Virus record (IMG/VR): IMGVR_UViG_3300048058_000019
DNA: 64,000 bases
Source of the DNA: a virus
Taxonomy: Duplodnaviria > Heunggongvirae > Uroviricota > Caudoviricetes
Direction: 5' to 3' (one strand)
Shown here: piece by piece, positions 10,518-56,695 of the stretch
Numbering within the stretch: position 1 is the first letter of the stretch
Layout of the letters: every line of letters begins with the position of its first letter
The notes under the pieces: model-generated
Seen by the model: only the letters and a program-made list of their open reading frames with translations
Database searches by the model: none
Told to the model about the DNA's origin: nothing
Made by a program: the position numbers and the translations under genes

Positions 10518-11489
10518 TTACTTCTTGTCCTCAGGGATCTGAATCAAGGGCATGACGTTGCCGTCCCCGCCCATCATGTAGCGAGGAAGGTCGCCCGACC
10601 ACTTCTCCAACCACTGACGCTGAATCAGAGCGGGAGTCAGCGAAGCGGCAACTCGCTCGTTGTATTCCGCTTGCGCTTCACCCTTGATCTTCAGAGCATC
10701 AGCTTCACCCTTAGCAGCCTCTCGAGCGGCATCGGCCTGACCTTTAGCGGTGGCCGCAGCGATTTCAGCCTGCTTCTCAGCACTCTGGAGCTGGTAGACC
10801 TTCTCCAAAGCCTGCTGTTCCTGAACCTGCTTCTTCTTAATGGCCGCTTCGTACTCGTCATCAAACCGAACGTCGGCAATCGAGATTTCGGTCAGCTGAA
10901 CGCCGTACTTCACCAGCCACTTGGCCAGGTTATCCTGGACCTTACTCTTCATCTGAGGACGTTTGACCAGAATCTCAGATGCCTTGTAGAGGGCCGTCTC
11001 GGCCTTCAAGACTTCCTGAGCCGCCGGGATGATAATGCGATCAGCATATTCGATACCAATCGTATCGAAAATCTTCGGGGCGGAATCAGCCAACATCTTG
11101 AAGTTCAGCGTCATATCAACTTCGATAGTCTGCTGATCGGCGGTGGCGCTTCCGTAGGTGGCGGTGTGCTTGTTGATCTGGCGGTCCATGGATTCGATAT
11201 CGGCCCAAGGCTTCACGAAGCTAACACCCGAATTGAGGGGGCGTTCCTGAACCTTACCGAACTCGACCACGACACCGACCTGACCAGGATCCACGATGCG
11301 AATCGTGGAATACGCCAGCATACCAAACAAGGCGACGAAAGCCAGAACGAAGCATGCGTTCCCACCGAACGCGAACGTGCCGTCGCTACCGGCGCGCTTA
11401 GACTCGTTGGTCTTACCGAGCGACTTGAGAACCTTGCCCAATATGAACAAGGCCGCGAACAAGACAACAGCAACAATCAGTTTACCCAT
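10518..11489 (-). CDS. SPFH/band-7 (prohibitin/HflK/C-like) membrane protein
   Basis: N-terminal TM helix KLIVAVVLFAALFILG, SPFH-like core, and a long Ala/Glu/Lys/Gln-rich coiled-coil C-terminus. GGAGGAAAAATG RBS. Confidence 0.8.
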   Translation of the reverse strand: MGKLIVAVVLFAALFILGKVLKSLGKTNESKRAGSDGTFAFGGNACFVLAFVALFGMLAYSTIRIVDPGQVGVVVEFGKVQERPLNSGVSFVKPWADIESMDRQINKHTATYGSATADQQTIEVDMTLNFKMLADSAPKIFDTIGIEYADRIIIPAAQEVLKAETALYKASEILVKRPQMKSKVQDNLAKWLVKYGVQLTEISIADVRFDDEYEAAIKKKQVQEQQALEKVYQLQSAEKQAEIAAATAKGQADAAREAAKGEADALKIKGEAQAEYNERVAASLTPALIQRQWLEKWSGDLPRYMMGGDGNVMPLIQIPEDKK

Positions 11490-11992
11490 TTTTCCTCCAA
11501 AATACCATTAGACTTCTTCAACTCAACCAGTTTGGATTTCCATTTCTTCACTTTCATCCGATCAAAGCTCTCTACCTCTACGCCATGTTTCATCAACTCC
11601 TTAAAGCGACGGTGTGCACTTCTAACCACCATAAATGGAATACGTCCGTATACACCCCTACTTCCCCTCTTCTTCTGGTTCTTAAGTAGCTGATTCCAGG
11701 GCGTGTCGAAGACGATAGCCTCTACTTCGTAGCCTTGACTCTTGGCCATCCTCGCCCAGCGCCGTCTGGTCTTCCCATCAACGAACTGAGCATCAACAAC
11801 GAAAGGTTCCTTGCTAGTAAAGAGCTCGAGGGCCATCTGACTTGCGTGTTTCCACGCAAGATTCGCCTTGCCGAAGGTCCATCTTCCCGCAACATAATCA
11901 TCGGGCGAAACACAGGCCAAATGCGAGAGATACTTCTTCCGATAGGTAGACTTCCCTGAACCGGTTGGCCCGATGAGCATGTAAAGGATCAT
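11477..11992 (-). CDS. P-loop polynucleotide-kinase-like protein (T4 Pnk kinase-domain-like, kinase only)
   Basis: MILYMLIGPTGSGKSTYRKKYL resembles the T4 Pnk N-terminus [22 protein letters not shown] (Walker A). At 171 aa there is no room for the HAD phosphatase domain. Confidence 0.65.
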   Translation of the reverse strand: MILYMLIGPTGSGKSTYRKKYLSHLACVSPDDYVAGRWTFGKANLAWKHASQMALELFTSKEPFVVDAQFVDGKTRRRWARMAKSQGYEVEAIVFDTPWNQLLKNQKKRGSRGVYGRIPFMVVRSAHRRFKELMKHGVEVESFDRMKVKKWKSKLVELKKSNGILEEKWVN

Positions 11993-11993
11993 A

Positions 11994-12299
11994 TTACCCT
12001 CTAATTAAGGAAGGACGAATCCCTCGTTTCCGGCGATCTTCTCGGTGCAATTTTCTGTAATCTTCGATGCCTAGCGCAACGTAGTGTTCAATCTTCTCAA
12101 AAAATTCCGGATCTTCAGCTTTAACAGGACCCTTGGGGGTTAATACTTTGTTCTTGAATACCTGAAGAATGTGAACCTGACCTCCTTTTACGGAGGCATA
12201 CCACATTCGCGAGTCATCACCCATGACTAGATTCTCATGCCAAGACTTTTTAGATTCGTTGGCCCAATCTGTGATCAAGTCATTAAGACTAGGTGACAC
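11994..12299 (-). CDS. hypothetical protein, DPxFF-motif family member (101 aa)
   Basis: Contains KAEDPEFFEKIEHYVALG. Confidence 0.45.
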   Translation of the reverse strand: MSPSLNDLITDWANESKKSWHENLVMGDDSRMWYASVKGGQVHILQVFKNKVLTPKGPVKAEDPEFFEKIEHYVALGIEDYRKLHREDRRKRGIRPSLIRG

Positions 12300-12828
12300 T
12301 TTTCCTCTCCTTCAACCGCCTGTCGTACAGAACAATATTTACAGCCGCTGCCAGATTTGCGCAATGCTTGGTGGGAATTACGACAAATCTGTGACAGTGC
12401 ATAACGTGGACCTTCTCTAGTGAGCCGTCTTCAGGACCAAAGACGTACACCGCATTCTCGGGGTGTATGAAGTCCGGAAGACTCTCTGCGTTCGGACGGA
12501 TCTCAACAGCAACCGGCGTTATACCCTTAGGGAAGTGATCAAAGGGATAGTCGAATTGAACCATTTCAACATCTCGATATCCTTTCATCCTCTCCTCGCG
12601 AGGAAGACGTTCACCCTTCTCAAGGTCGAGAGATACCCTGTTGCCGGTCCACCACACCTGCTTCGCATCGAAGTTCGACGCGGCGCGGACCGCCGCACCA
12701 ACGTTATGTGCATACTTAGGGTTGATTAAAATTACGGACGGTGTGGTACCCACCGGAGGTACATTCTTACCCCAGATTGCTTTTTTGAACCTTCCATCTA
12801 GAGGAGCGAGGTCTTCTTCACGCACCAA
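12289..12828 (-). CDS. SpoU/TrmH-family (SPOUT) RNA 2'-O-methyltransferase
   Basis: NVGAAVRAA (SPOUT motif 1) and VYVFGPEDGSL (motif 2 region); the size, 179 aa, is typical of minimal TrmL/SpoU enzymes. Confidence 0.7.
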   Translation of the reverse strand: MVREEDLAPLDGRFKKAIWGKNVPPVGTTPSVILINPKYAHNVGAAVRAASNFDAKQVWWTGNRVSLDLEKGERLPREERMKGYRDVEMVQFDYPFDHFPKGITPVAVEIRPNAESLPDFIHPENAVYVFGPEDGSLEKVHVMHCHRFVVIPTKHCANLAAAVNIVLYDRRLKERKSVT

Positions 12829-14179: not shown

Positions 14180-14586
14180 TACTTCTTCTCTTTCACAAGA
14201 CGCTTGATAGTCTTGTCGAGTACCGCAAGAACTTGGCGCTTAGAGCGCCCCTTGTGATCGTTATATGATACAACGATGTCAAGGTTCGACGCCAGCTTAA
14301 AAGCTTTGTATCCTTGACTTACGATGGTGTCTGCCAGAGCCTTCATTGGCGTCTCAACCGTCTTATGCTTACCAACGACCTTCTCCACAGCTCCAGCTAA
14401 ACAAAAGGAAAAAGCTTCCTTCTCGAAGCTCTCACAAATTCGCCCATCCTCAGTATAGGATGAGTAATCCTGTGCCCAGCGACCCCGCCCCTCAATGAGC
14501 TTGCGGGTCTTTTTTAGGATAGCGGAATTCTTCACAGCATCCTCTGTGCGATAACCTGTCCCACCGACTCCGCCAAGGCCTCGCAA
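14179..14586 (-). CDS. hypothetical protein (135 aa)
   Basis: Minus-strand ORF; shares a 1-nt junction with the previous gene. Confidence 0.4.
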   Translation of the reverse strand: MRGLGGVGGTGYRTEDAVKNSAILKKTRKLIEGRGRWAQDYSSYTEDGRICESFEKEAFSFCLAGAVEKVVGKHKTVETPMKALADTIVSQGYKAFKLASNLDIVVSYNDHKGRSKRQVLAVLDKTIKRLVKEKK

Positions 14587-15119
14587 TCATCGCCGGTCTC
14601 GATGAGTTGCTTTGATTTTACTCTGAACTTCCAGTGACCACTCTGACTTCCTTCAATCCTGAAGGAGCGCTCAGGACCGAAAAGTAGCTCAGTTATAGGC
14701 GATAGTTCGCTGTGAGCTTCCTTACGATGGATGATCCTGGCATACACCTGAGCCCTGATCTTGGGATCGTGGAGCTTCTTCTTGTCAACTTCAGAGAGTA
14801 CGAAATCGTCCTCAGTCACAAACTTCATCTCATCAATTTTGGATGAAGTCCCAATCTGTTTGGCGATCTCGGTCTGGATTTCGAACTCCTCCTCCGTGAC
14901 GTCTTCGTAACCCTTCGAGTACTTCTCGTCTGTCTTCCTGTCAATAAAATCGTCACGGGAGTAGGAATCAGAGAACTTTTTGACGGTAGGTTTCCCACCC
15001 TTTGTCCCCAAGCGACCGTGACGGGTTGTAACGACGTACTCGCCGTCTTCGTGCTCATACATCCAGAACTTGTTGCTTCCTTCCTCGGAACAGATTAAAA
15101 TCTTCTTCTGCATAAACAC
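14532..15119 (-). CDS. WGR-domain protein
   Basis: SNKFWMYEHEDGEYVVTTRHGRLGTKGGKP fits the WGR signature (SNKFY...W-G-R-I/L-G..G). Confidence 0.55.
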   Translation of the reverse strand: MFMQKKILICSEEGSNKFWMYEHEDGEYVVTTRHGRLGTKGGKPTVKKFSDSYSRDDFIDRKTDEKYSKGYEDVTEEEFEIQTEIAKQIGTSSKIDEMKFVTEDDFVLSEVDKKKLHDPKIRAQVYARIIHRKEAHSELSPITELLFGPERSFRIEGSQSGHWKFRVKSKQLIETGDDCEALAESVGQVIAQRML

Positions 15120-26519: not shown

Positions 26520-27204
26520 CCAGCTTCTTGAAGATCCGATCTCTCAGATCTCGGGCAACTGCCGCTCGACGGACGTCGTGAGACTCGTCAGCGTCATATT
26601 CTCCATGCTTGTAAAGCCGGTTTAGGTTCCGACCGGAAAACGCCATACGGACTTTGCCCGCTTCCTTCTTGTCCATGATGTGGAAGATACCCTCGATGGC
26701 ACGTCCCGACATCTCAGCAAAATCCATGCGCACTTTCTCGTTCATCTCCCCGGGTTTGAAGACCTCTCCGTAGTGACGGAGAGCTTCACCCAGAACCTCG
26801 GACTCTTCTAGGTTCACGAAGAGGGAGACCAAGGAGTTAACAGCGGGCATTACGGGCTCCGCCCCAGGAATGATGATCTTAGGAGTCGAGGGGACCGCAG
26901 CCGGAGCCGCAGTTGGCACAGGAGCAGGGGCCACAGGCGGCGGCTTGACACCCATCCGCTCGGCCATCTCCTCGAAGGAGAAGATGTTCTTACCAGTTTT
27001 GGTCTGCCACTTCTCGTCGGCAGCCTTCGGGTCTTTCTCGTCGTAGCCCGGTTCATCCTTAGTAGAAGTCCGGATGACAACCTCGCGGCTACAATTACAG
27101 GTAATGTGCCGCTCGATCATCTTCTTTCCATTCTCTTCGATTTCCGCGCAGGGCCAATCGAAGATTCGGTGGTTGATACCACACGTGCAGAAGATCTTCA
27201 TCAC
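26503..27204 (-). CDS. hypothetical protein with N-terminal Cys cluster (233 aa)
   Basis: MMKIFCTCGINHRIFDWPC...CNCSREV at the N-terminus, then a Pro/Ala-rich linker. Confidence 0.5.
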   Translation of the reverse strand: MMKIFCTCGINHRIFDWPCAEIEENGKKMIERHITCNCSREVVIRTSTKDEPGYDEKDPKAADEKWQTKTGKNIFSFEEMAERMGVKPPPVAPAPVPTAAPAAVPSTPKIIIPGAEPVMPAVNSLVSLFVNLEESEVLGEALRHYGEVFKPGEMNEKVRMDFAEMSGRAIEGIFHIMDKKEAGKVRMAFSGRNLNRLYKHGEYDADESHDVRRAAVARDLRDRIFKKLDDAGA

Positions 27205-27713
27205 TCCTCCATATTGAGTCTAATTTGACTCACGTAGGTTAGAACAGCAGAATCCGCCCGACAATGATCCGGAATTTTACTCAGTAAGGTTTCAGTGTTT
27301 GAACGATAACCTTTTGTGAATTTCACGGGCTTAAGCTTGAAATCTCGCGTATTATCACATCGATCAGCGAGTTTAAGTAAGACGCCATCTCGCGATAGCC
27401 GAGCAAAACGCGCGAAGTATTCAGCCTCTTTTTCAGCCTTAGGGAGAGACTTAACCTTAGTCACTCCCATGACCAGCTCAGTCATGTCGCTCCCGAAGTA
27501 GAGTCGGATTGTACCGGAAGTAACATCGGTGTCTTCAATCACATCATGAAGTACACCTGCAGTCGCCAACTTAATATTGCCGGTACGAGCAAAGAGATCA
27601 TCCGCAACCCGTAAAGGGTGGAGGATATAAGGTTCGTCAACGAACTTGCGACGTTGTCCATCGTGGGCCTTGGTCGCAAGGAGGATTGCTCTATTGTAGT
27701 TCTGAAGCCACAT
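27201..27713 (-). CDS. RelA/SpoT-family HD-domain (p)ppGpp hydrolase (small alarmone hydrolase)
   Basis: KAHDGQRRKFVDEPYILHPLRVA and AGVLHDVIEDTDV match the SpoT/Mesh1 HD hydrolase motifs. Confidence 0.8.
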   Translation of the reverse strand: MWLQNYNRAILLATKAHDGQRRKFVDEPYILHPLRVADDLFARTGNIKLATAGVLHDVIEDTDVTSGTIRLYFGSDMTELVMGVTKVKSLPKAEKEAEYFARFARLSRDGVLLKLADRCDNTRDFKLKPVKFTKGYRSNTETLLSKIPDHCRADSAVLTYVSQIRLNMEE

Positions 27714-29719: not shown

Positions 29720-30192
29720 TTAACACCCTTCGTCGCGGCCCACTTCCGTATCAGCTTTTGCGTTTTCTTCCGTTCTCTCTTTGCCTTATCGGTTTCAACT
29801 AGTTCCCGCAACTTTTTGTCATAGACATCTTTCTTCTTGAGACTCTTAACAAGCTTGGTGTCAGTCTCGAACAGCGTTCTTAAAAGACCAAGAAGGTCAG
29901 ATGTCGGTTCAGCAATGTTCATGTAATAAACCCATCCATCTTTATTCGTTGACAGGTCTTGCTTGCGCGAGAAGATGACCTCAACCTCATTTTGAACGAA
30001 CACGTGGATTGCAGGGATAAAGTATCCTCCCCGAATCTGGAGATGAGGTTGGATATAAGGTGTCGAACCGCCGTACAAGGACACCTTAAATCCCTCGTTA
30101 ATGAGCCACACCTTTAGTTGGCCTAGCGTGGCAACTTTCTCTTGATGGGTCATTTCGCAAACTGACGCTTGGCCAGCTCCTCCTTGTACCAC
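29716..30192 (-). CDS. hypothetical protein (158 aa)
   Basis: Minus-strand ORF with a 4-nt overlap with the next gene. Confidence 0.5.
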   Translation of the reverse strand: MVQGGAGQASVCEMTHQEKVATLGQLKVWLINEGFKVSLYGGSTPYIQPHLQIRGGYFIPAIHVFVQNEVEVIFSRKQDLSTNKDGWVYYMNIAEPTSDLLGLLRTLFETDTKLVKSLKKKDVYDKKLRELVETDKAKRERKKTQKLIRKWAATKGVK

Positions 30193-31121
30193 TCAGGAAG
30201 GCCAGCAGTCGCTCCACGCAAGATCTTGGGAAGCGCCCACTTTAGAAGCGCCTCAGCGATGGGCGAGTTGGGACCCTTCGCCTCTTCCTCAGTGAGATCC
30301 TTGTGGACTTCCTTGATAAGCTTGCCGATGTCCTTCGGAGCATTTTCAAGCTCACCACGTTCCTCGAGGTGCATTACTGCCTTGCTCCAGCGAGCAGGGG
30401 TTTGATACGACATGATGAGCTTCTGAAGGATATCACCCTGCTTGGGGTTGGATTCCTTCCACTCGACCCCGTGCTTCTCCTTGAACTCCTCGCTGACGAA
30501 CTTCCCCATCATGGCCTTGCCATCCGAACCAAAACGGTTGTAGTTCTTGACGACAACACCTTCGATCTTCTCTTCGCCTAGGACACTCATGGTCTCGTCC
30601 ACGAGCTTCCGGAAGACGTCGTAGTTATCGATCTTGCCACGGAAGAAACAAGGGACGCACTCGAGGCCGATCCGATCGGCTTCAGCCTTCTTCTCTTCGG
30701 GAGAGAGATACTGCTCGTACGAGGGGCTGATATCGAAGATGATCAGATGGTCTTTGGGGACCCGGCCGTAAGCCCGAGTGTGATGCTTGGGCTTCGACAG
30801 GTATTCTGCCCGGTAGGTCCAGCCCAGCTTGAGATTGGGTTGAAGCTTTAGGATGGTTTCTACCGCCTTGATGAAGAGCTTCTCAGGGGCAATCAGGTTG
30901 ATCTGGGCACCCTTCGAACGGGCACGCAGCTCGGGACCCTCACCAAAATCGAAGACACCAAAGCTGAATTGGGACCCGTCCACTTTCTCTTCGAGGATCA
31001 CTTCCTCCAGGAAAAGCTCTGTGATCGCATGGTGACCCAGAGCGTGGATCTTCGTGTATGAATGATACGACGTTGCGGTTACAGGCTTCTTTGCAACCAG
31101 GGGCTTCTCTTCAGGAACCAT
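30150..31121 (-). CDS. ATP-dependent polynucleotide ligase, RNA-ligase-like (nucleotidyltransferase domain, no OB domain)
   Basis: Motif I EEKVDGSQFSF (KxDG); motif III HLIIFDI; motif IV KIEGVVVKN; motif V MMGKFVSEEFK. Start trimmed to the ATG at 31121 (MVPEEKPLV), which has a GAGGGAAAG RBS. Confidence 0.6.
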   Translation of the reverse strand: MVPEEKPLVAKKPVTATSYHSYTKIHALGHHAITELFLEEVILEEKVDGSQFSFGVFDFGEGPELRARSKGAQINLIAPEKLFIKAVETILKLQPNLKLGWTYRAEYLSKPKHHTRAYGRVPKDHLIIFDISPSYEQYLSPEEKKAEADRIGLECVPCFFRGKIDNYDVFRKLVDETMSVLGEEKIEGVVVKNYNRFGSDGKAMMGKFVSEEFKEKHGVEWKESNPKQGDILQKLIMSYQTPARWSKAVMHLEERGELENAPKDIGKLIKEVHKDLTEEEAKGPNSPIAEALLKWALPKILRGATAGLPEWYKEELAKRQFAK

Positions 31122-31464
31122 TCTTTCCCTCACAATCTTTACAGCAGCACTTGATACATACGCATTCGCTACCACCACATGGAGTAGTGCAATGCTTATG
31201 ACTACAACCACATGTCTCGTAATCGGAGAAGGGAAGTATCGACGCTAACTGCTTCCTTTCTCGATCATAGACAACCTTGAGCATCTGCTTTTCATGCTCA
31301 ACCAGGAAGATGGAAACCCGGTGGGAGTCTTTATGGTAGAATCTCGCATCTCCCACACGGATCTTGTCCACGATACGACACTGGTCCTCCTCTCTGAGGA
31401 CCAGCCCAAATCGCTGGAAGGCACGCCGTTGAGCGTGCAACCGCTGAGATTTATCTTTCTTCAT
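31111..31464 (-). CDS. Cys-rich hypothetical protein (117 aa)
   Basis: C-terminus CGCSHKHCTTPCGGSECVCIKCCCKDCEGK. Confidence 0.45.
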   Translation of the reverse strand: MKKDKSQRLHAQRRAFQRFGLVLREEDQCRIVDKIRVGDARFYHKDSHRVSIFLVEHEKQMLKVVYDRERKQLASILPFSDYETCGCSHKHCTTPCGGSECVCIKCCCKDCEGKNGS

Positions 31465-33331: not shown

Positions 33332-33528
33332 TTTACCTCAGGTAAAACCTCAGGACCCCAATCTAGATCATAGTCTAGATTCCAATGCCAATCGGAATAA
33401 TGACCTTGGGGCCGTTGGCACCGGATAGGCTTATTGTCTGGAGTCAATGCAGACCAACAAGCATTTTCACAAAGAACCTCTTTATAGGCAGCATTTGGGG
33501 CGAAGATCTTAAATTTTTCTGAACTCAT
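33328..33528 (-). CDS. small Cys/Trp-rich protein with an N-proximal FKIFAP motif (MSSEKFKIFAPNAAYKE...)
   Basis: Variant of the NFKIxAP motif at residues 6-11. Confidence 0.4.
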   Translation of the reverse strand: MSSEKFKIFAPNAAYKEVLCENACWSALTPDNKPIRCQRPQGHYSDWHWNLDYDLDWGPEVLPEVK

Positions 33529-33839
33529 TCACCCGCCGCTTCTACCGTAGCAGACATAGAACCTGCACAACGTGGGATCCTTGGGTCTCGCCCGTAAGCG
33601 TGGACCTTATCTCTCTTGAATTCAGCATATTCAAGAGCGCCCGAATATACAATCACCTTTCCGGTCGCATCGACCTCAACTGCCATCCTGAATGCCTTCT
33701 CCTTGGAGTGACCGAAGACCACTCCAAGCATTTCGATCACATACTCGTATGTGTGATCATCATCATTCCACAGGATAACGTTGTAAGGAGGCTGTGTCTT
33801 GACATCCTCCTTGACTTCATCTTTTACTTCTGTCGACAT
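33525..33839 (-). CDS. clpS: ClpS-like N-degron adaptor (copy 1)
   Basis: PPYNVILWNDDDHTYEYVIEMLGVVFGHSKEKAFRMAVEVDATGKVIVYSGALEYAEFKRDKV aligns with the E. coli ClpS core [52 protein letters not shown]. Confidence 0.8.
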   Translation of the reverse strand: MSTEVKDEVKEDVKTQPPYNVILWNDDDHTYEYVIEMLGVVFGHSKEKAFRMAVEVDATGKVIVYSGALEYAEFKRDKVHAYGRDPRIPRCAGSMSATVEAAGE

Positions 33840-34066
33840 TACTTCTTCTCCCGTGTGGTACGTTCGGTGAATTGAGACATCTTATCGAGACTTCCGAGGT
33901 CATCAAATTTTGTGTCAAGTAATTTGACATCATTAATCTCGGCTGCACCAAATTCTCGCAGATAGTCGAGGAAATCTTCCTCACGCTCATCACCGAGAGG
34001 TACGGCATAAGTGATGCAATAAACAAGTGTCTTGCCGAGTTTCTCACAGGCCTTTTTGCGGTCCAT
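33839..34066 (-). CDS. hypothetical protein (75 aa)
   Basis: Minus-strand ORF with 1-nt junctions; preferred over the alternative-frame ORF 33817-34047. Confidence 0.4.
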   Translation of the reverse strand: MDRKKACEKLGKTLVYCITYAVPLGDEREEDFLDYLREFGAAEINDVKLLDTKFDDLGSLDKMSQFTERTTREKK

Positions 34067-34266
34067 CAGAGTCCTTTCATCTCTTCAAGGATGTCTTTCC
34101 AGTCTTTTCCAGTTCGAGTAGCTATATCCTTAATACGGAGGAGACCTTCTTTAAGAGAACAATCATAACAAAGAATATGACTTATTGGATGCAATCGTGG
34201 TTTCGCCTTGCAAGTCAAGCAAGGCACTGCAGCTATCGGCGCAGTCATTTTGAAGTTCCCGAGCAT
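34066..34266 (-). CDS. small Cys-containing protein with an N-proximal NFKMTAP motif (MLGNFKMTAPIAAVPCLTCK...)
   Basis: Motif variant at residues 4-10. Confidence 0.4.
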   Translation of the reverse strand: MLGNFKMTAPIAAVPCLTCKAKPRLHPISHILCYDCSLKEGLLRIKDIATRTGKDWKDILEEMKGL

Positions 34267-34269
34267 CTA

Positions 34270-34446
34270 CCTCACCAATCCCACGTACACGAGATCCCTC
34301 GACTTCGACTTCTTCGATCCATCCACGCTCGTCTCCGTCACGGTGACTTGACGGCCCTTTCGGGTCTTCATCTTCCTCCGGACGCCGTGCTTCGCGTCGG
34401 TCCTGGAGTAGAAACCGTGAACCATCTTACTGTTGCTGCGCCGCAT
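34270..34446 (-). CDS. possible small highly basic protein (MRRSNSKMVHGFYSRTDAKHGVRRKMKTRKGRQV..., 58 aa)
   Basis: Fills the gap on the coding strand. The competing plus-strand ORF 34027-34518 is antisense to everything else nearby. Confidence 0.3.
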
Positions 34447-34717
34447 CGTTTTCCTCCTTGTAAGCTTCCGTATCCAACTGGTTTAAGCGAGCATTATTTC
34501 TCTCTACCCAGAGATTGAATTCTGGTCTTTCTTGAAGGGTAGTGAGAATCTCCATTGTCTTGGGCTCATCAAGCTGCCCTGGCAGAACATAGAGCTTCCA
34601 GATCCTTTTAAAACGTTTGAACCCCTCCAGATCTCTCACCGCATCATGCTCATATGCGGCGAGTATCTTCATCCGATCGATGCCGAGGATCTTGAAGTTG
34701 CTCCTACTCTCCATTCT
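34427..34717 (-). CDS. small protein of the NFK-motif family (MESRSNFKILGIDRMKILAAYEHDAVRDLEGF...)
   Basis: Trimmed to the internal Met. It is a paralogue of 34856-35089 (IDRMRELERFEHDAVKDIAWF). Confidence 0.4.
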   Translation of the reverse strand, partial: RMESRSNFKILGIDRMKILAAYEHDAVRDLEGFKRFKRIWKLYVLPGQLDEPKTMEILTTLQERPEFNLWVERNNARLNQLDTEAYKEENDAAQQQ

Positions 34718-34928
34718 TCTCCGCCTTGAGCTCCGAGTCGGCCCTGCTCCATCCATCAATTTCGGTTCCATCCGCTTTATCGGTGGCCTCTTGTTCGGAG
34801 TCGGCCTCGACCTCGATTGAGTAATAGACGCTATAACTCACAGTCCATTTGGGCTTCACAAGCTCTTCTCTTTCTTCTGATCTTCTCGAGAGAGATCTAC
34901 AACGGTAAATCCATTCCGGCCCCACCAC
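34704..34928 (-). CDS. hypothetical acidic protein (74 aa)
   Basis: Minus-strand ORF. Confidence 0.35.
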   Translation of the reverse strand: MVGPEWIYRCRSLSRRSEEREELVKPKWTVSYSVYYSIEVEADSEQEATDKADGTEIDGWSRADSELKAEKNGE

Positions 34929-35089
34929 GAGCCGTAACGAAGACCGTAAACTTCGTGCATCTTCTTTCCGTCACAATGTGCGTTAAAAAACTTTTTGAGC
35001 CTTTGAAACCAAGCAATATCCTTAACTGCATCGTGTTCAAATCGTTCCAACTCCCTCATTCGATCGATGCCGACTATCTTGAAATTCAT
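34856..35089 (-). CDS. small protein of the NFK-motif family (MNFKIVGIDRMRELERFEHDAV..., 77 aa)
   Basis: Begins MNFKIVGID; paralogue of 34427-34717. Confidence 0.45.
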   Translation of the reverse strand: MNFKIVGIDRMRELERFEHDAVKDIAWFQRLKKFFNAHCDGKKMHEVYGLRYGSWWGRNGFTVVDLSREDQKKEKSL

Positions 35090-35265
35090 CTTCCACTCGA
35101 GTAGAGACTACCGGTCACTGCCATGGCCAAGAACCCGATCAGCGAAAGCGGCCAGATAGCCATCAGCCCGATACATTTCCAATCGACACGTCTCCCGCGT
35201 TTAGGACCCCAGAAGGCCGTTAGCCCGAGTAACATGATTATCAAGTACGCCCATACCCAAATCAT
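35086..35265 (-). CDS. tiny membrane protein (MIWVWAYLIIMLLGLTAFWGPKRGRRVDWKCIGLMAIWPLSLIGFLAMAVTGSLYSSGR, 59 aa)
   Basis: ATGA overlaps with both neighbours; two hydrophobic segments. Confidence 0.35.
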   Translation of the reverse strand: MIWVWAYLIIMLLGLTAFWGPKRGRRVDWKCIGLMAIWPLSLIGFLAMAVTGSLYSSGR

Positions 35266-35510
35266 TTCTTATCATGGTCACTTGCATGACCAAGCGCCGC
35301 TGCTTGAGCTAAAAGGCCCCATAAAAGCATCACTATGGCGATGGGAACAGAGATCCAAGGGGTCATCCACATGTTTTTGATGAGTTCGATACATCCCTCT
35401 TGGCCTACGATGTCCTGAAAAAGAGACATGGCTGCAGCCATAGAGAGAACTCCGCACCACCATGAAGTCCCAGCAACAGACTTCATTGAATGTTTCTTCT
35501 CTTTTGCCAT
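35262..35510 (-). CDS. small membrane protein (82 aa)
   Basis: Two predicted TM helices (SWWCGVLSMAAAMSLF, WISVPIAIVMLLWGLLAQAAAL). Confidence 0.45.
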   Translation of the reverse strand: MAKEKKHSMKSVAGTSWWCGVLSMAAAMSLFQDIVGQEGCIELIKNMWMTPWISVPIAIVMLLWGLLAQAAALGHASDHDKK

Positions 35511-35810
35511 TTAATCCTCCGGCTCAATAGAGAAGGTCAGAGGGAATTTATTCATTCGGGCTATCGCGTGAGCCTTCTCTACATGGAATTCAGCTCGTTC
35601 GAGAGGTTCCACCACAACCAGGGCTACTTGCTTCGAGTGAGCCTCGAGCATGATCCGCGTAGATTCCGCGAGATCCTTATTGAAGACTTTGGATAGAACC
35701 AGAACTACGAAATCCATCGGAGTCTTCGGATCATCGTGGATGAGTACCCGATACATCTTGATGTATCCGGTACGCGTTTTAGTCTCCTGAATGGTATCCG
35801 TATCAGACAC
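35511..35810 (-). CDS. clpS: ClpS-like N-degron adaptor (copy 2)
   Basis: YRVLIHDDPKTPMDFVVLVLSKVFNKDLAESTRIMLEAHSKQVALVVVEPLERAEFHVEKAHAIAR matches the ClpS core. The two copies are only about 30% identical to each other. Confidence 0.75.
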   Translation of the reverse strand: MSDTDTIQETKTRTGYIKMYRVLIHDDPKTPMDFVVLVLSKVFNKDLAESTRIMLEAHSKQVALVVVEPLERAEFHVEKAHAIARMNKFPLTFSIEPED

Positions 35811-36150
35811 ATCGATCTCCTTCAGGGAGAGTTTCTTCGAACTGAGTCAGCTTGCCGGTCAGAGGCGAACGTCGCCGTAGCTCGTGTTCCTCTACTTGCG
35901 GAGGAGGAATGGGCTTCTTATCGGCCAACTCGATATAATCCTTGTCATGGACAACAGTCCGTCCGTTAATAGACGTCACGAGATTCCTCTTCTCGTTCTC
36001 CATCAGGTCATACTCGAAAAGGACGATCGTCCCGATTTCAAGTCCTGACTCACGGAGACGAATGAACTCGTCCAAAGCTTCCTTTTCGTTCTCTTCCTGA
36101 TAAAGGTTGATATACTCAGCTTTCCAATCAACCACGCCAAAAAGCTTCAT
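35803..36150 (-). CDS. hypothetical protein (115 aa)
   Basis: Minus-strand ORF. Confidence 0.45.
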   Translation of the reverse strand: MKLFGVVDWKAEYINLYQEENEKEALDEFIRLRESGLEIGTIVLFEYDLMENEKRNLVTSINGRTVVHDKDYIELADKKPIPPPQVEEHELRRRSPLTGKLTQFEETLPEGDRCV

Positions 36151-36848: not shown

Positions 36849-37342
36849 TCATTCCCGCCCAATTCAACTGGCTCCACTTTCATGCCCTTAGGAATCCGAC
36901 TCCGGTAAACGAAATAGATCAACTCGCCATCCTTGATGTGGCGAAAACGCCTCTTAATCCAGTCGGATTCAGGCTTCTTGCGTCTATCGTCAGTCACAAG
37001 CTTCCAGGTTGATTCACCTTCATTACCTATAATAGAAACCCATGCTCTCCTGGTATAAGGGGAGTTGGTCGCCTCAACCAAGGAAGCAATCCTATTTGCC
37101 GGATTTGCGATACCTTTACGGCGAAGAACGATGTAATGTGTCATCACGAGATAAGCATTGTCCTCTTCCAGTTCTCGGGGATGCTCTTTCCACCCGAAGG
37201 AGAGGTGATAATACGCTTGTAGCTTACTCAGCGGATCCTTTGGGAGAGGTTTGAGATGACTCACTACTCCAACTTTTTCGTCCGAGATCAAGCTACAACC
37301 GTCCTTCCATCGGCACCGTCGCGCCACTTGATCTTGATCCAA
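36836..37342 (-). CDS. hypothetical protein (168 aa)
   Basis: Minus-strand ORF. Confidence 0.5.
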   Translation of the reverse strand: MDQDQVARRCRWKDGCSLISDEKVGVVSHLKPLPKDPLSKLQAYYHLSFGWKEHPRELEEDNAYLVMTHYIVLRRKGIANPANRIASLVEATNSPYTRRAWVSIIGNEGESTWKLVTDDRRKKPESDWIKRRFRHIKDGELIYFVYRSRIPKGMKVEPVELGGNEWDR

Positions 37343-37914
37343 TTGGGGTTCTTCTTCGACTCCTTCGTGTCTCCAACCAACTTGCTGAGCTTCCCCTTAA
37401 GGACGATCCCCTCGGTCGTCTTATCCGTCTTCGACCAAGCGAAGAGCTCCGAATAAGGAGTGAGACTCTTCCCATCAGAAACCCACTTGGGAAGCTGAAG
37501 CGGGAAAGCCTCGGGGTCATCGAGTTTCGAGAACACGCCCTCGAAAATCTTAATCACCTTGTCCCAGCGAAAGGCTTCGGGATCTCTTCCCAACCACTCT
37601 CCGTTGAACCAAGGCATCCCGATTACATATAGCAGTTCTGGCCCATCGTAATCAGGGCGACGGCGCATCCACTCAGTATCGAGGACGGTGGCTGGGGGAA
37701 GGTCCAAGAACTTAACGGCCTTCCTCATCTCGTCGGCGACGGGAAGAGGCTTATTAACTCTCGACCAGAATGAGATATCGTCGTTGATGGTCACAGCACA
37801 TCGCCATCCGTCATACTTCGCGGTCGCGATGTAGCCGCCCTGCATATCGAGATCAGGGAGGGATTTAGGGTCCCTACGCCAGGGCTTGTCGGGGAATCTA
37901 CGAAGCAAATTCAT
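37288..37914 (-). CDS. minimal ATP-dependent ligase (nucleotidyltransferase domain only, 208 aa)
   Basis: Motif I ATAKYDGWR; motif III VLDTEWM; motif IV TEGIVLKG; motif V PNWIKIKWR. All of these fall within 208 aa, leaving no room for an OB domain. Confidence 0.6.
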   Translation of the reverse strand: MNLLRRFPDKPWRRDPKSLPDLDMQGGYIATAKYDGWRCAVTINDDISFWSRVNKPLPVADEMRKAVKFLDLPPATVLDTEWMRRRPDYDGPELLYVIGMPWFNGEWLGRDPEAFRWDKVIKIFEGVFSKLDDPEAFPLQLPKWVSDGKSLTPYSELFAWSKTDKTTEGIVLKGKLSKLVGDTKESKKNPNWIKIKWRDGADGRTVVA

Positions 37915-40808: not shown

Positions 40809-41134
40809 AACGGCCCCATTTCTCTTATTCGCTGACCAACAACATGGTCATTGTAGGACCGAAGCATCCTGTAGAACTTCGGGAAGAACTCAGGATCAGC
40901 AGCAGGTAACTCTATTCCCGATTCAGGAAGGTGCATGTGTTCGAGGTTTTTTATCCACCTTACACTAGCGTCCTTAATGAGGAAAACAACGTTAGCAGTT
41001 TGGTGTTTAGGGAGATGATAGAGATATCGATACCCTAAATGCTCCCCCGTATGCCACTGACGAGGACTCGCATGAGCATCGTACTCACTCTGAGCCGCCA
41101 ACCAATCCTTGATGATCCATTGTAGGTGGATCAC
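40805..41134 (-). CDS. hypothetical protein, DPxFF-motif family member (109 aa)
   Basis: Contains LPAADPEFFPKFYRMLRSY. Confidence 0.45.
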   Translation of the reverse strand: MIHLQWIIKDWLAAQSEYDAHASPRQWHTGEHLGYRYLYHLPKHQTANVVFLIKDASVRWIKNLEHMHLPESGIELPAADPEFFPKFYRMLRSYNDHVVGQRIREMGPL

Positions 41135-42510
41135 TTATCACCAAGAACGATATTCAGGATTTCGTAGGGATCCTTTAAACCCTTCTCATACTGAACCTCT
41201 CGGCACTTCTTGATGATGGTACCGAACTCTGGCGAGGGTTTCATATCGCGCTCAAGGAGATGTCTACCCATCACGACATCCTTCTCGGGCCTCTTATCAA
41301 CGGAAATAACCCGAGCCATCCGCATGAACTCGTCGCCATGTTTGAAATCCTTGGCGAGAGCATCCGGTGACGTGCGGCCGAAGTGATCGGCGGACGACAC
41401 TTTGTAAAGCATTTCCATCGTCGTGCCAGCCTCAGCTAAACGCCGGGCGAGCTTACGATAGCCCTTCGGGCCCACATTCGACTTTGGATGGGCGAAGTGT
41501 GCCGGAGCAAGATGGTCCTTGACCAAAGCAGATACCTGCGACACCAGGGCGAGCGGCGCTCGGAGTCGCTCCAAGAAGGCACGCGCAGGTTCCATACCTG
41601 CTTCTTCATGCCCGCGAGCCCTCCACCGACCCTCCTCAAATTGGGTCGTAGCGGCCTTACCGAAATCGTGAGCCAAAGCTCCAAACATCAGCGGGAGGTC
41701 GTGCTCGGGGACTCCCGTCCGCAGTTCAGCGGCGCAGTCGATCACCATCAGAGTATGGATATAGACGTCCCCCTCAGGATGCCAAACGGGATCCTGCTGA
41801 ACATCAACGAGGTTATGGATCTCGGGAGCGATAATCCTATTGGCGTCGATTTCCTGTAAGAAGGCCACTCCTCGCGAGGGCTGAGATCCCTTGAGGAGAA
41901 GCTTGACCCACTCTTCCCAGAGTCGCTCGCCTGGAAGCTCCTTAAGAGCGTCAACAGTCGCTTTACACAAATCCAACGTCTCCGCATCCGGGCGTAGGTG
42001 GAATCGGGCAATAAACTGTGCGGCCCGCAAGATCCGAAGGGGATCCTCAACGAAGGTCTGGGGATCGGTAACACGGATGATCCTCTTACGGAGATCATCC
42101 TGCCCACCGAACGGATCGATGATCTCGCTGGTAAGAGGATCCATCGCGATGGAGTTCATCGTGAAGTCACGCCTACGCGCAGCATCTTTGATGGACATGG
42201 AGGGATCCGGCTTAACCGTGAAACCCTTATGACCAACGCCGATCTTGGAATCACGGCGGGGAACCGAGATATCAAAACCTCCAACCTTTAAGATGCCAAA
42301 AGCCCTACCTACCGCGTGGACGTCCCCAAAACGCTTCAGGGTGGTTTCGAGACGCTCCATAGGGAGCCCATAGACTTCGATATCGACATCCTTAGGAGGT
42401 AAGCCTAGAAGTTGGTCGCGGACATAGCCGCCTACAACAAGAGCTCGACCACCTTGGCGGCGGATCGAATTTGCGATTTCTTTTACTTTGGTGTCCATAT
42501 CTCTCCTCAC
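41131..42510 (-). CDS. cca: CCA-adding tRNA nucleotidyltransferase with HD domain
   Basis: N-terminal Pol-beta NTase head (GGYVRDQLLGLPPKDVDIEV), then an HD domain (HTLMVIDCAA...LAHDFGK). At 459 aa it matches the bacterial class II CCA enzyme architecture. Confidence 0.8.
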   Translation of the reverse strand: MRRDMDTKVKEIANSIRRQGGRALVVGGYVRDQLLGLPPKDVDIEVYGLPMERLETTLKRFGDVHAVGRAFGILKVGGFDISVPRRDSKIGVGHKGFTVKPDPSMSIKDAARRRDFTMNSIAMDPLTSEIIDPFGGQDDLRKRIIRVTDPQTFVEDPLRILRAAQFIARFHLRPDAETLDLCKATVDALKELPGERLWEEWVKLLLKGSQPSRGVAFLQEIDANRIIAPEIHNLVDVQQDPVWHPEGDVYIHTLMVIDCAAELRTGVPEHDLPLMFGALAHDFGKAATTQFEEGRWRARGHEEAGMEPARAFLERLRAPLALVSQVSALVKDHLAPAHFAHPKSNVGPKGYRKLARRLAEAGTTMEMLYKVSSADHFGRTSPDALAKDFKHGDEFMRMARVISVDKRPEKDVVMGRHLLERDMKPSPEFGTIIKKCREVQYEKGLKDPYEILNIVLGDK

Positions 42511-44906: not shown

Positions 44907-44983
<77 letters not shown>

Positions 44984-56011: not shown

Positions 56012-56695
56012 TTACTTGCCATAGACCTGTACCAAAGCTTTCTTGATGTGGTCACATTGGCCTACGGGCTTCTTCTTCGCGTGGTGAAACCGGAAACCGG
56101 GACAGGTGCACTCAGCGTAGCTCGTATCAAGATCAATTGAAATGTGATAGGGATCCCCTTTAGATCCCAAAATCTCAATTACCTTGGTCGAGGGATCCGA
56201 ATCGTCAGGTATCACGGCCCCCTTCTCACGCTCCTGAGGAGTCTGATACTTCATCCCAAGCGCCTTGAACACGTCCTCTTCCGTGCGCGAGGCGATATTG
56301 TCTTTGTCGCGGAAAACGCCGTACTGGTTTAGGAGCAGATTTCGTCCTCTCGCACGGGCTCTCATCGCGACAGCTAGTTGGTGAGGCCCAGTAGCATAAC
56401 AGAGCATCGCCCCCCAGTGCTCGTCGTCGGTGGTCCAAACCTGGACCTCAATCTCCTTGAAGAGGCCCATCATCCGCTTTTCGCCGCCCGTGAAACCAAG
56501 CTCGCGGAGAGCCTCAAACATCGGGGTGGAGGGGTGAGCCACAACGTCAATGTCCCCGGCCGTCTTCTTACCCCGCCGCAAGCTCCCACAGATCAAGACC
56601 CTGGTGGTGAGGGGAGTTATGATTGCCTCAAGCTCCTCTGCGATGGGTCGGACGACAGAAGAGGGGTGCCGTTTCCTATCCTTTTTGTTTCCCAT
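56012..56695 (-). CDS. minimal family-X DNA polymerase (Pol beta palm plus thumb) with C-terminal SWIM zinc finger
   Basis: ICGSLRRGKKTAGDIDVVAHP matches the Pol beta segment [29 protein letters not shown]...MLCYATGPHQLAVAMRARARGRNLLLNQYGVF...EEDVFKALGMKYQTPQER matches Pol beta [60 protein letters not shown]. C-terminus YAECTCPGFRFHHAKKKPVGQCDHIKKA is CxC-x(n)-CxH (SWIM). Confidence 0.75.
   Translation of the reverse strand: MGNKKDRKRHPSSVVRPIAEELEAIITPLTTRVLICGSLRRGKKTAGDIDVVAHPSTPMFEALRELGFTGGEKRMMGLFKEIEVQVWTTDDEHWGAMLCYATGPHQLAVAMRARARGRNLLLNQYGVFRDKDNIASRTEEDVFKALGMKYQTPQEREKGAVIPDDSDPSTKVIEILGSKGDPYHISIDLDTSYAECTCPGFRFHHAKKKPVGQCDHIKKALVQVYGK

What the first reader, a model, noticed from the sequence alone, without database searches (positions are those of the whole stretch)
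33525..35810. Two divergent ClpS (N-degron adaptor) paralogues within 2.3 kb
Both ORFs carry the ClpS core (xVILxNDDxTxxxFVxxVL...A...ML..H..G.A.V......E.AE.K). They are only distantly related to each other, which argues for long-term retention of both copies rather than a recent duplication. Phage-encoded ClpS is uncommon, and two copies suggest a split in substrate specificity or a decoy function. The result could be redirection of host ClpAP toward host proteins, or protection of phage proteins from it. The genes between them are NFK-motif ORFs and tiny membrane proteins.
Basis: partly seen in the sequence, partly recalled or inferred. Interest (0 to 1): 0.7.

Follow-up and report, generated by a model that had tools for sequence, protein, structure and literature searches.

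The report
Two host-type ClpS adaptors in phage
A giant phage-like genome carries two real but very different ClpS genes, one from each of two ancient bacterial ClpS classes; both were apparently captured from bacteria, so the phage can probably re-aim the host's Clp protease at proteins with particular N-terminal residues.

Summary
Window 33525-33839(-) (ClpS-A, 104 aa) and 35511-35810(-) (ClpS-B, 99 aa) both pass Pfam ClpS far above threshold and fold as ClpS. They are 28% identical.

They are not diverged duplicates made inside the phage. Each nests in a different bacterial ClpS class.
- ClpS-A belongs to the class with a remodelled pocket (T38H, M40Y, M62A, H66D), the same signature as Leptospira ClpS1. 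It is 65-76% identical to mostly Planctomycetota proteins.
- ClpS-B belongs to the canonical class (M40, H66). Its nearest bacterial relatives (55-64%) are also Planctomycetota.
- Both classes very likely occur in one Planctomycetota MAG, at unlinked loci.

Both genes match the phage's GC content, and each has a roughly 72%-identical orthologue at the same position in a related phage contig. Non-synonymous change is far lower than synonymous change.

ClpS-B's N-degron loop changed from NDD to DDP, which is the native loop of the functional mycobacterial ClpS. This argues against a dead decoy.

Phage ClpS is already known (at least 319 IMG/VR contigs, and the jumbo-phage literature). The linked pair was seen nowhere else, and class A was found in only one other viral contig.

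Verdict: a new member of a known kind, of moderate interest. The split in specificity is plausible but untested.

The parts
33525..33839 (-). ClpS-A: 104-aa class-A ClpS, pocket like Leptospira ClpS1. In E. coli numbering it has N34 D35 D36, T38->H29, M40->Y31, M62->A53, H66->D57, and L99-region Met95. The ClpA-contact equivalents E70, E73 and K75 are kept. The N-terminal extension of about 17 residues is predicted disordered.
   Evidence: Pfam 71.3 bits; alignment to E. coli ClpS; family alignment with invariant D26 H29 Y31 A53 V56 D57 M95; AF2 pLDDT 81 with residues 1-14 below 50; Foldseek; LinClpS1 pocket list.
35511..35810 (-). ClpS-B: 99-aa canonical-class ClpS with the M32 gatekeeper (M40), H58 (H66), and E71/E74 (E79/E82). 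Its loop is H-D-D-P-K-T-P-M, where bacterial relatives have H-N-D-D-V-T-P-M (N34->D, D36->P). It starts at a GTG that overlaps the stop of the upstream gene by 8 nt. The 18-residue N-terminal extension is conserved in L007.
   Evidence: Pfam 79.2 bits; alignments; motif counts; AF2 pLDDT 84; Foldseek 0.8 A to 3gq0/3g3p; N-terminal conservation versus L007.
35262..35510 (-). 82-aa small hydrophobic protein, predicted two TM segments, immediately downstream of clpS-B. No functional link has been shown.
   Evidence: ORF list; 61% identical homologue at the same position in L007; no Pfam or PHROG family.
35086..35265 (-). 59-aa small hydrophobic protein, predicted two TM segments.
   Evidence: ORF list; no family hit.
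34856..35089 (-). 77-aa ORF starting MNFKIVGIDRM; paralogue of the ORF at 34427-34714.
   Evidence: tblastn 35% identity, E 2e-9; no family hit.
34427..34714 (-). 95-aa ORF (MESRSNFKILGIDRM...); paralogue of the 77-aa ORF. Its homologue in L007 is 85% identical.
34267..34446 (-). 59-aa basic ORF. It is conserved in both related contigs and serves as the synteny anchor: it lies downstream of clpS-B in L007 and upstream of clpS-A in L146.
   Evidence: 87% identical in L007 and 73% in L146.
34066..34266 (-). 66-aa Cys-rich ORF (MLGNFKMTAP...). The weak zf-UBR hit is sub-threshold and treated as chance.
   Evidence: Pfam E 0.08, 13.5 bits against a cutoff of 25.2.
33839..34066 (-). 75-aa ORF. Its stop overlaps the clpS-A start (shared base at 33839).
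   Evidence: ORF list; no family hit.
35803..36150 (-). 115-aa ORF immediately upstream of clpS-B, overlapping it by 8 nt. This neighbour is conserved in L007 at 65% identity.

Best explanation
The window is part of a 384-kb phage-like genome. It carries, in one co-directional block 1.7 kb apart, one representative of each of two anciently separated bacterial ClpS classes.

- ClpS-A is a class-A ClpS, a group found in Planctomycetota, Leptospira (ClpS1) and other phyla. Its N-degron pocket is remodelled: H at the T38 position, Y at the M40 gatekeeper, A at M62, and D at H66.
- ClpS-B is a canonical ClpS with the M40 gatekeeper and H66. In the phage lineage its alpha-amino-binding loop changed from N-D-D to D-D-P, the configuration used by the functional mycobacterial ClpS.

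Both genes were captured from bacteria, most likely the Planctomycetota host lineage. In bacteria the two classes sit at unlinked loci. Both genes were then ameliorated to phage base composition and kept under purifying selection.

Inferred mechanism: during infection each protein docks through its conserved helix-3 Glu/Glu(/Lys) surface on the N-domain of the host ClpA/ClpC unfoldase. Each uses its disordered N-terminal extension to hand over proteins bound by their free N-terminal residue. As ClpS does in E. coli, each also diverts the unfoldase from its default substrates. Because the pockets differ at the specificity-determining positions, the two adaptors are expected to recognise different sets of N-terminal residues.

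Shown: family membership, fold, pocket composition, phylogenetic placement, synteny, and constraint.

Inferred: binding to the host unfoldase, N-degron binding, different specificities, and effect on infection.
For: Family and fold.

Two classes:
- Class A is monophyletic with 100/100 bootstrap, and each phage copy sits inside its own class.
- ClpS-A shares every invariant residue of 24 class-A homologues.
- 108 of 110 class-A hits have Asp at H66.
- The same pocket list is published for Leptospira ClpS1, which coexists with a canonical ClpS2 in that genome.

Bacterial origin and unlinked loci:
- The best non-phage hits are 65-76% (A) and 55-64% (B), with Planctomycetota names.
- Their contexts are chromosomal.
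- P0009 (class A, HLY09858.1) and P0239 (class B, HLY08348.1) have accessions 1,510 apart. They occur in the same JGI and ENA samples, on contigs that both have 69% GC, which points to one MAG.
- None of 80 bacterial class-A loci has a second ClpS within +-10 kb.

Old residents of the phage:
- Gene GC is 0.486 and 0.483 against 0.497 for the window, and 0.64-0.67 for the bacterial homologues.

Retention:
- L007 has clpS-B (73% aa identity) in conserved synteny. L146 has clpS-A (72%) downstream of the same 59-aa ORF.
- pN is 0.17-0.19 against pS of about 0.74.

Competence of the pockets:
- M. smegmatis ClpS reads W-D-D-P-V-N-L-M at positions 33-40. It binds Leu, Phe, Tyr and Trp through a salt bridge from that first Asp.
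- A group of Planctomycetes ClpS natively binds N-terminal Leu/Ile/Val.
- The Glu79/Glu82(/Lys84) equivalents are kept.
- Both N-terminal extensions are present, and that of ClpS-B is conserved in L007.

Gene block: it is tightly packed, with no convincing internal promoter or terminator.
Against: - No biochemical data exist for either protein or for any phage ClpS that I could find.
- The host, and whether it uses ClpA or ClpC, is unknown. No Clp ATPase, ClpP or L/F-transferase was seen among the roughly 50 window ORFs scanned.
- The class-A core is so conserved across phyla (Rubrobacteraceae, Calditrichia and Rhodothermia also reach 60-70%) that a Planctomycetota origin for ClpS-A alone is not secure.
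- D36->P is absent from the 118 other listed hits of the class-B search (bacterial where context or name is known) and does remove one of three alpha-amino ligands. Weakened binding by ClpS-B therefore cannot be excluded.
- L007 and L146 are separate short contigs. Conservation of the pair on one molecule outside this phage is not shown.
- dS is saturated, so the dN/dS values are only qualitative.
- No virion gene lies in the window or in the 10 kb beyond one end, so 'phage' rests on gene content.
Confidence: 0.6

Rival explanations
1. Anti-proteolysis or decoy. One or both phage ClpS proteins, ClpS-B in particular, mainly occupy the N-domains of the host ClpA/ClpC without delivering cargo. 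This would shut down host N-degron and default (for example ssrA-tag) degradation and protect phage proteins.
For: - D36->P, plus N34->D in this phage, hits the alpha-amino-binding triad N34/D36/H66.
- In the class-B search, P36 is seen only in the two phage sequences among 120 listed hits. It also occurs in the unrelated terminase-bearing phage contig L012, which groups elsewhere in the tree with 84% support.
- The unfoldase-contact residues are retained.
- Leptospira ClpS1 and ClpS2 both inhibit ClpA ATPase activity.
Against: - The resulting D-D-P loop is the native loop of M. smegmatis ClpS, a proven N-recognin.
- N-D-P also occurs in a ClpS next to a bacterial FemAB-like gene (L140).
- H66, the M40 gatekeeper and the hydrophobic pocket residues are intact.
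- The N-terminal extension is kept and conserved at the protein level between phages. From memory of E. coli ClpS work, this extension is needed for delivery but not for inhibition.
Confidence: 0.2
2. The two genes arose by duplication inside the phage lineage and then diverged.
For: They lie 1.7 kb apart on the same strand. Paralogous small ORFs lie between them.
Against: - Each copy is far closer to bacterial proteins of its own class (65-76% and 55-64%) than to the other copy (28%).
- Class A is a 100%-supported clade that contains ClpS-A and excludes ClpS-B.
- Class-specific invariant residues are all present in the respective copy.
Confidence: 0.02
3. The region is bacterial (a chromosome or a non-viral element), and the two clpS genes are simply the organism's own ClpS1/ClpS2 pair.
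For: No virion gene was found in the window or in the 10 kb beyond one end. Bacteria with two ClpS classes exist.
Against: - The window is 64 kb of almost entirely same-strand, densely packed, mostly orphan small ORFs.
- It has strong PHROG hits: tRNA nucleotidyltransferase 1e-74, HNH 7e-53, phrog_200 5e-53, phrog_1297 6e-48, phrog_388 2e-44 and phrog_8970 1e-37.
- No housekeeping genes were seen.
- In 80 bacterial genomes the two classes are never within 10 kb of each other.
- GC is 0.50 against 0.62-0.69 for the bacterial loci.
Confidence: 0.05

Closest known systems
Leptospira interrogans ClpS1 / ClpS2 pair (Kumari & Kumar 2025, PMC12493166)
   Same: Two ClpS classes occur in one genome.
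- The LinClpS1 pocket (L28 W29 D30 D31 N32 H34 Y36 V39 A58 V61 D62 M100) matches ClpS-A position by position (L23 W24 N25 D26 D27 H29 Y31 V34 A53 V56 D57 M95).
- The LinClpS2 pocket (N33 D34 D35 T37 M39 V42 M61 A64 H65 L98) matches the class of ClpS-B.
- The two genes are unlinked in the bacterium.
   Different: Here both classes are carried by a phage-like genome and sit 1.7 kb apart. ClpS-B has D-D-P instead of N-D-D. ClpS-A keeps Lys at the K84 position, where LinClpS1 has Val.
Single ClpS genes of jumbo phages (e.g. Pseudomonas PA5oct, Salicola SCTP-2, Sinorhizobium Phosso, Agrobacterium Atu_ph07; Iyer et al. 2021, PMC7824862)
   Same: These are phage-encoded ClpS proteins proposed to bring targets to the host ClpAP. 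They are 28-36% identical to ClpS-B.
   Different: Those phages show one place per record. None of the 80 IMG/VR or 48 metagenome loci examined has two copies within +-8 kb. Class A was found in only one other IMG/VR contig.
Mycolicibacterium smegmatis ClpS (PDB 9ayn and others; bioRxiv 10.1101/2024.06.12.598358)
   Same: It has the D-D-P loop at positions 34-36, with His at 66 and Met at 40, as in ClpS-B. It is a functional N-recognin for Leu, Phe, Tyr and Trp. It is also the best structural superposition for ClpS-A, at 0.7-1.2 A.
   Different: Only about 26% identical to either phage protein. It works with ClpC1, and a metal ion is bridged by His65.
Planctomycetes ClpS group used as a Leu/Ile/Val recognizer in protein sequencing (Reed et al., bioRxiv 10.1101/2022.01.04.475002)
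   Same: It comes from the same phylum as the closest relatives of both phage proteins. It shows that a Planctomycetes ClpS group has non-canonical specificity for Leu, Ile and Val.
   Different: The spacing of its mutated residues (Q55, L68, V72, Y100) fits class-A positions equivalent to E. coli 48, 61, 65 and 93. This is my inference only.
ClpS-like N-domain of eukaryotic UBR1/UBR2
   Same: It has Asp in place of ClpS H66 (D263 in human UBR1), as in ClpS-A. ClpS-A gives a weak sequence hit to the UBR2 N-domain (E 2.7e-4).
   Different: It is a domain of a 200-kDa E3 ligase. There is no Clp partner and no close homology.

Membership tests
ClpS family (Pfam PF02617) | Profile match above the curated gathering score | tested here: met
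   71.3 and 79.2 bits against a cutoff of 23. PHROG phrog_27368 hits at 3e-13 and 3e-17.
ClpS family (Pfam PF02617) | [quoted passage not shown] | tested here: met
   AF2 secondary structure is E-H-H-E-H-E for both. Foldseek TM-scores (target-normalised) are 0.9-0.96, with rmsd 0.7-1.2 A to solved ClpS.
ClpS family (functional N-recognin) | Alpha-amino-binding residues N34, D36 and H66, plus D35 (E. coli numbering) | tested here: inconclusive
   ClpS-A has N, D, D, then Asp at 66. ClpS-B has D, D, Pro, then His at 66. Both deviations are native to characterised bacterial ClpS: LinClpS1 and M. smegmatis ClpS. Binding itself was not measured.
ClpS family (functional adaptor) | Unfoldase N-domain contact residues E79, E82 and K84 | tested here: met
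   ClpS-A has E70, E73 and K75. ClpS-B has E71, E74 and H76, where His is the consensus of its bacterial class (residue roles).
ClpS family (functional adaptor) | Disordered N-terminal extension preceding the core | tested here: met
   About 17-18 residues with pLDDT below 50-63 in both models. The ClpS-B extension is 12/18 identical in L007 despite saturated synonymous sites. Whether this length suffices for delivery is not testable here.
ClpS family (functional adaptor) | Binds ClpA/ClpC and stimulates degradation of N-degron substrates | not testable with these tools
   This needs biochemistry with the cognate host unfoldase.
Class-A ClpS (like Leptospira ClpS1, with the H66D pocket) | Pocket signature W33, [ND]34, D35, H38, Y40, A62, V65, D66 and the C-terminal ...RC[AK]GSM[ST]A motif | tested here: met
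   ClpS-A carries every invariant column of 24 homologues. Motif counts over 120 hits and over 80 genome loci agree, as does the published LinClpS1 list. The clade has 100/100 bootstrap support.
Canonical ClpS, Planctomycetota-type subgroup (class B) | R-V-L-I-H-N-D-D-[VI]-T-P-M-D-F-V loop and ...M.EAH... with the M40 gatekeeper | tested here: inconclusive
   ClpS-B matches 26 invariant columns. It departs at N34 (D) and D36 (P), which are N in about 116 and D in about 113 of 120 hits. It is a member by descent with a derived loop.
NCBIfam ClpS equivalogs (PRK00033 / PRK13019 models) | Score above the equivalog cutoff | tested here: not met
   Best scores are 46.6 (cutoff 143) and 69.5 (cutoff 149). 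Neither protein is an equivalog of the modelled proteobacterial or other subgroups.

The most novel reading that the evidence does not exclude
The phage runs a two-channel takeover of the host N-degron pathway.

- Two adaptors with complementary specificities have been brought together in one expression block. Class A would take Leu/Ile/Val-type N-termini, and the retuned D-D-P canonical copy would take aromatic and Leu N-termini.
- The D36->P change was gained independently in at least two phage lineages (this phage with L007, and L012). It would then be a phage-specific adaptation that changes which N-termini are taken, or how tightly they are held.
- More speculatively, the many small phage ORFs that begin with MNFKI... 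could be substrates or regulators. Removing two residues would expose an ideal Phe-Lys N-degron.
Probability: 0.1. Interest if true: 0.7.

Novelty: new member of a known kind. Interest (0 to 1): 0.35.

Why it matters
ClpS decides which proteins the ClpAP/ClpCP machine destroys, on the basis of their first residue. Phage-borne ClpS genes have been noted in genome surveys, but I found no experimental study of one.

A phage that carries both bacterial ClpS classes side by side would make a good test case. Each copy is conserved in a related phage contig. It could show whether phages reprogramme host N-degron proteolysis, and whether the class with the remodelled pocket, which remains poorly characterised, has a distinct specificity.

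There are also two practical points.
- The class-A family supplies natural variants of a pocket type (Asp at the H66 position, as in the UBR N-domain). If the protein-sequencing recognizer belongs to this class, which is only my inference, they would also be variants of that pocket.
- The recurrent NDD-to-(N/D)DP loop change gives a specific mutation to test.

The finding does not reveal a new kind of system.

Tried and rejected
- **Nucleotide search against GenBank phages.** A 6-kb query found no match.
- **Single-sequence scans of IMG/VR.** Neither ClpS found a relative. Alignment-based scans were needed.
- **Metagenome scan for close phage relatives of ClpS-B.** The best hit was only 59% identical, and the window's own sample is not in that collection.
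- **Identifying the class of the Leu/Ile/Val-binding Planctomycetes ClpS.** No sequence is in the papers held. No listed homologue has Q55/L68/V72/Y100 at those raw positions. This remains an inference from residue spacing.
- **A second example of both classes in one MAG via accession numbers.** Most proteins carry no accession, so only the HLY pair was found.
- **Search for virion genes.** I walked 10 kb beyond the low end of the window and found none. The look-up at the high end failed because the product is not on record.
- **zf-UBR hit on ORF 34066-34266.** E 0.08, below the cutoff. Rejected as chance.
- **P36 as strictly phage-specific.** Rejected: it is native to mycobacterial ClpS and occurs next to a bacterial FemAB-like gene in L140.
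- **First bootstrap script.** It timed out and was redone with a lighter NJ/Kimura procedure.


Full report
**1. What is there**

On the minus strand, 33525-33839 encodes a 104-aa protein (ClpS-A) and 35511-35810 encodes a 99-aa protein (ClpS-B, GTG start).
- Both match Pfam ClpS (PF02617) far above the 23-bit gathering score, at 71.3 and 79.2 bits. Both also match the phage ClpS family phrog_27368.
- They are 28% identical over 71 residues.
- AlphaFold2 models built on family alignments have mean pLDDT 81 and 84. Each shows the ClpS strand-helix-helix-strand-helix-strand core and a low-confidence N-terminal tail.
- Foldseek places ClpS-B at 0.8-0.9 A rmsd on C. crescentus and E. coli ClpS. 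It places ClpS-A at 0.7-1.2 A on M. smegmatis ClpS and Arabidopsis ClpS1.
- NCBIfam equivalog models hit both proteins but below cutoff.

The description of the intervening ORFs also holds: two small hydrophobic proteins, two paralogous 'NFK[IL].GIDRM' ORFs at 35% identity, and three other small ORFs.

**2. Context**

The window is bases 18,949-82,948 (reverse orientation) of a 384,188-bp JGI contig. The same sequence recurs in several samples.
- Nearly all genes are on one strand, small and densely packed.
- Recognisable genes form a nucleic-acid repair and modification toolbox: RNA ligase, RlaP, tRNA nucleotidyltransferase, HD_4, SpoU methylase, AAA_33, WGR, a Pol-beta-like protein, and ATP-dependent DNA-ligase-like proteins. 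An SPFH protein and a tRNA-Met are also present.
- Several PHROG matches are strong.
- I saw no virion gene in the window or in the next 10 kb. 'Giant phage' is therefore an inference from gene content.
- Among the roughly 50 ORFs scanned, there is no Clp ATPase, ClpP or L/F-transferase.
- The clpS block has overlapping or abutting genes and no convincing internal promoter or terminator.

**3. Origin: two bacterial classes, not a phage duplication**

ClpS-A found 1,387 homologues. Apart from L146 (P0002), the best listed non-self hits are 59-76% identical and, where context or a name is known, bacterial. Those with names are Planctomycetota. ClpS-B found 185 homologues. Its best bacterial hits are 55-64% identical and are again named Planctomycetota.

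The two sets are different families.
- **Class A** has invariant D35, H at the T38 position, Y at M40, A at M62, V65, and Asp at H66 (108 of 110 scored). It also has a conserved C-terminal ...PRC[AK]GSMSA motif.
- **Class B** has the canonical H-N-D-D-[VI]-T-P-M loop, the M40 gatekeeper and H66.

A neighbour-joining tree gives class A 100/100 bootstrap support. ClpS-A lies inside it, and ClpS-B lies among class-B sequences.

The class-A pocket is the one published for Leptospira interrogans ClpS1. The canonical pocket is that of its ClpS2. That bacterium carries both, at unlinked loci.

For Planctomycetota, I found one likely case of both classes in a single genome.
- P0009 (class A, HLY09858.1, assembly GCA_035308725.1) and P0239 (class B, HLY08348.1) have accessions 1,510 apart.
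- They occur in the same JGI and ENA samples, on contigs that both have 69% GC.
- They are very likely one MAG. This is an inference, because the NCBI record for P0239 was not displayed.

A scan of species-representative genomes found at least 575 class-A loci. The best 80 are mostly Planctomycetota (Gemmataceae, Pirellulales, Phycisphaerae and others). They also include Rubrobacteraceae, Calditrichia, Rhodothermia and other groups at similar identity. Class A alone therefore does not pin down the donor phylum. None of those 80 loci has a second ClpS within +-10 kb. The 1.7-kb linkage is specific to the phage.

**4. Age and retention in the phage lineage**

Both genes have the phage's base composition. 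Their GC is 0.486 and 0.483 against 0.497 for the window, whereas the bacterial homologues have 0.64-0.67.

Two short contigs come from related phages.
- L007 (ENA) has the DNA-ligase-like gene (80% identical), the two upstream neighbours, clpS-B (73%), the membrane ORF, the 95-aa NFK ORF (85%) and the 59-aa ORF (87%). The contig then ends about 0.4 kb before the point where clpS-A would lie.
- L146 comes from the same sample as the window. It has the 59-aa ORF (73%), two different ORFs, then clpS-A (72%).

Between the orthologues, synonymous sites are saturated (pS about 0.74) while pN is 0.17-0.19. Both genes are therefore under purifying selection, though the ratio is only qualitative. The 18-residue N-terminal extension of ClpS-B is conserved in L007. 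This supports the GTG start over the shorter 81-aa call made in some assemblies.

**5. Pocket residues**

Positions are in E. coli numbering, from the HMMER alignments.

ClpS-A:
- Keeps N34, D35 and D36.
- Has H29 at T38, Y31 at M40, A53 at M62, and D57 at H66.
- This is typical of its class. The UBR1 N-domain also has Asp at the H66 position.

ClpS-B:
- Keeps T38, P39, M40, M62 and H66.
- Reads H-D-D-P-K where 113 of 120 relatives read H-N-D-D-x.
- P36 occurs only in this phage and L007 among those 120.

P36 also appears elsewhere:
- In L012, an unrelated 39-kb IMG/VR contig with a large terminase gene. L012 groups with a D36-bearing sequence (L104) at 84% support, apart from the window+L007 pair, which also has 84% support.
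- In L140, next to a bacterial FemAB-like gene.

The solved M. smegmatis ClpS reads W-D-D-P-V-N-L-M at positions 33-40. It binds Leu, Phe, Tyr and Trp N-termini through a salt bridge from that first Asp. The window's double change, N34D plus D36P, therefore recreates a loop known to work. It does not destroy the site.

The unfoldase-contact residues E79, E82 and K84 (roles) are E70/E73/K75 in ClpS-A and E71/E74/H76 in ClpS-B. His at the last position is the class-B consensus.

**6. Likely function**

The best-supported reading is that both proteins are working adaptors. They would dock on the host ClpA/ClpC N-domain and select proteins by their N-terminal residue. Their specificities should differ because the gatekeeper and pocket-lining residues differ (Y, A and D against M, M and H).

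Independent support that such differences matter comes from a report that a group of Planctomycetes ClpS natively binds Leu, Ile and Val rather than aromatic residues. I could not obtain that sequence. The spacing of its engineered positions fits class A, but this is only an inference.

The main rival is that one or both copies chiefly block the host unfoldase. It is not excluded and needs biochemistry.

**7. Comparison with what is known, and novelty**

Phage ClpS is already known.
- At least 319 IMG/VR contigs and 16 GenBank phages encode a ClpS.
- A comparative study of jumbo phages proposes that phage ClpS brings targets to the host ClpAP.
- I found no experimental work on a phage ClpS.

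Two-ClpS systems are known in bacteria.

What is new here:
- A phage-like genome carries one gene of each class, linked. This was not seen in any of the 80 IMG/VR, 48 metagenome or 80 bacterial loci examined.
- Class A occurs in a virus at all. Only one other IMG/VR contig has it (L147), and there it is alone.
- The canonical copy has a derived D-D-P loop.

This is a new member, or a new combination, of known kinds. It is not a new kind of system.

Noticed in passing
window minus-strand ORF starts at 35089, 32376, 31561, 28614, 17325, 350 (also 34714, 33528, 34266): Six small ORFs begin with (M/V)NFK[IR] followed by hydrophobic-[AGV]-[PI]. I estimate about 0.18 such starts by chance on both strands. 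The upstream DNA is not conserved, so the signal lies in the peptide. Only two of the ORFs are detectable paralogues. Removing two residues would expose Phe-Lys, a good ClpS-type N-terminus, but no link has been shown.
   Followed up: partly
L012:7650-8273 and L012:14325-16229: An unrelated 39-kb IMG/VR phage contig with a large terminase encodes a class-B ClpS (53% identical to ClpS-B). It also has Pro at the D36 position (H-N-D-P-F) and groups with a D36-bearing sequence in the tree. The change was therefore probably acquired independently.
   Followed up: partly
L147:7974-8306: This is the only other IMG/VR contig found with a class-A ClpS (146 kb, 52% identical). No second ClpS lies within +-8 kb. 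Its neighbours include EF-Tu domain 2/3 and tRNA-synthetase-like fragments, which suggests another large phage carrying translation genes.
   Followed up: partly
L146:294-710: In the related phage contig, a 138-aa ORF with a CX5R motif (weak dual-specificity phosphatase hit, below cutoff) lies between the conserved 59-aa ORF and clpS-A, where the window has different small ORFs. The spacer between the two clpS genes is variable.
   Followed up: no
L007:3706-4290: The related phage has a 2OG-Fe(II) oxygenase gene inserted directly downstream of clpS-B. It is absent from the window.
   Followed up: no
L104:275-2236: A RecQ-like helicase with an apparent intein lies in a tightly packed same-strand block with a class-B ClpS (canonical D36), separated from it by one 213-aa ORF, and with a metallophosphoesterase. 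This may be another phage.
   Followed up: no
window 34066-34266 (-): A 66-aa Cys-rich ORF gives a sub-threshold hit to the UBR-box zinc finger (E 0.08, 13.5 bits against a cutoff of 25.2). It is probably chance, but it is curious next to N-recognin genes.
   Followed up: partly
window 1-32000 and 36000-64000: The window holds a dense set of RNA and DNA repair or modification genes: RNA ligase 30150-31211, RlaP 1709-2494, tRNA nucleotidyltransferase 41131-42510, HD_4 27201-27713, SpoU 12289-12828, AAA_33 11477-11992, WGR 14532-15119, Pol-beta-like 56012-56695, and DNA-ligase-like 37288-37914 and 61109-62443. It also has an SPFH protein (10518-11489), DUF4419 (58387-59439) and tRNA-Met (44907-44983).
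   Followed up: partly
window 35511-35810 versus L001/L005 gene calls: Some assemblies call ClpS-B as an 81-aa protein starting at Met19. That call would remove the N-terminal extension. Protein-level conservation of residues 1-18 in L007 favours the 99-aa GTG start.
   Followed up: yes
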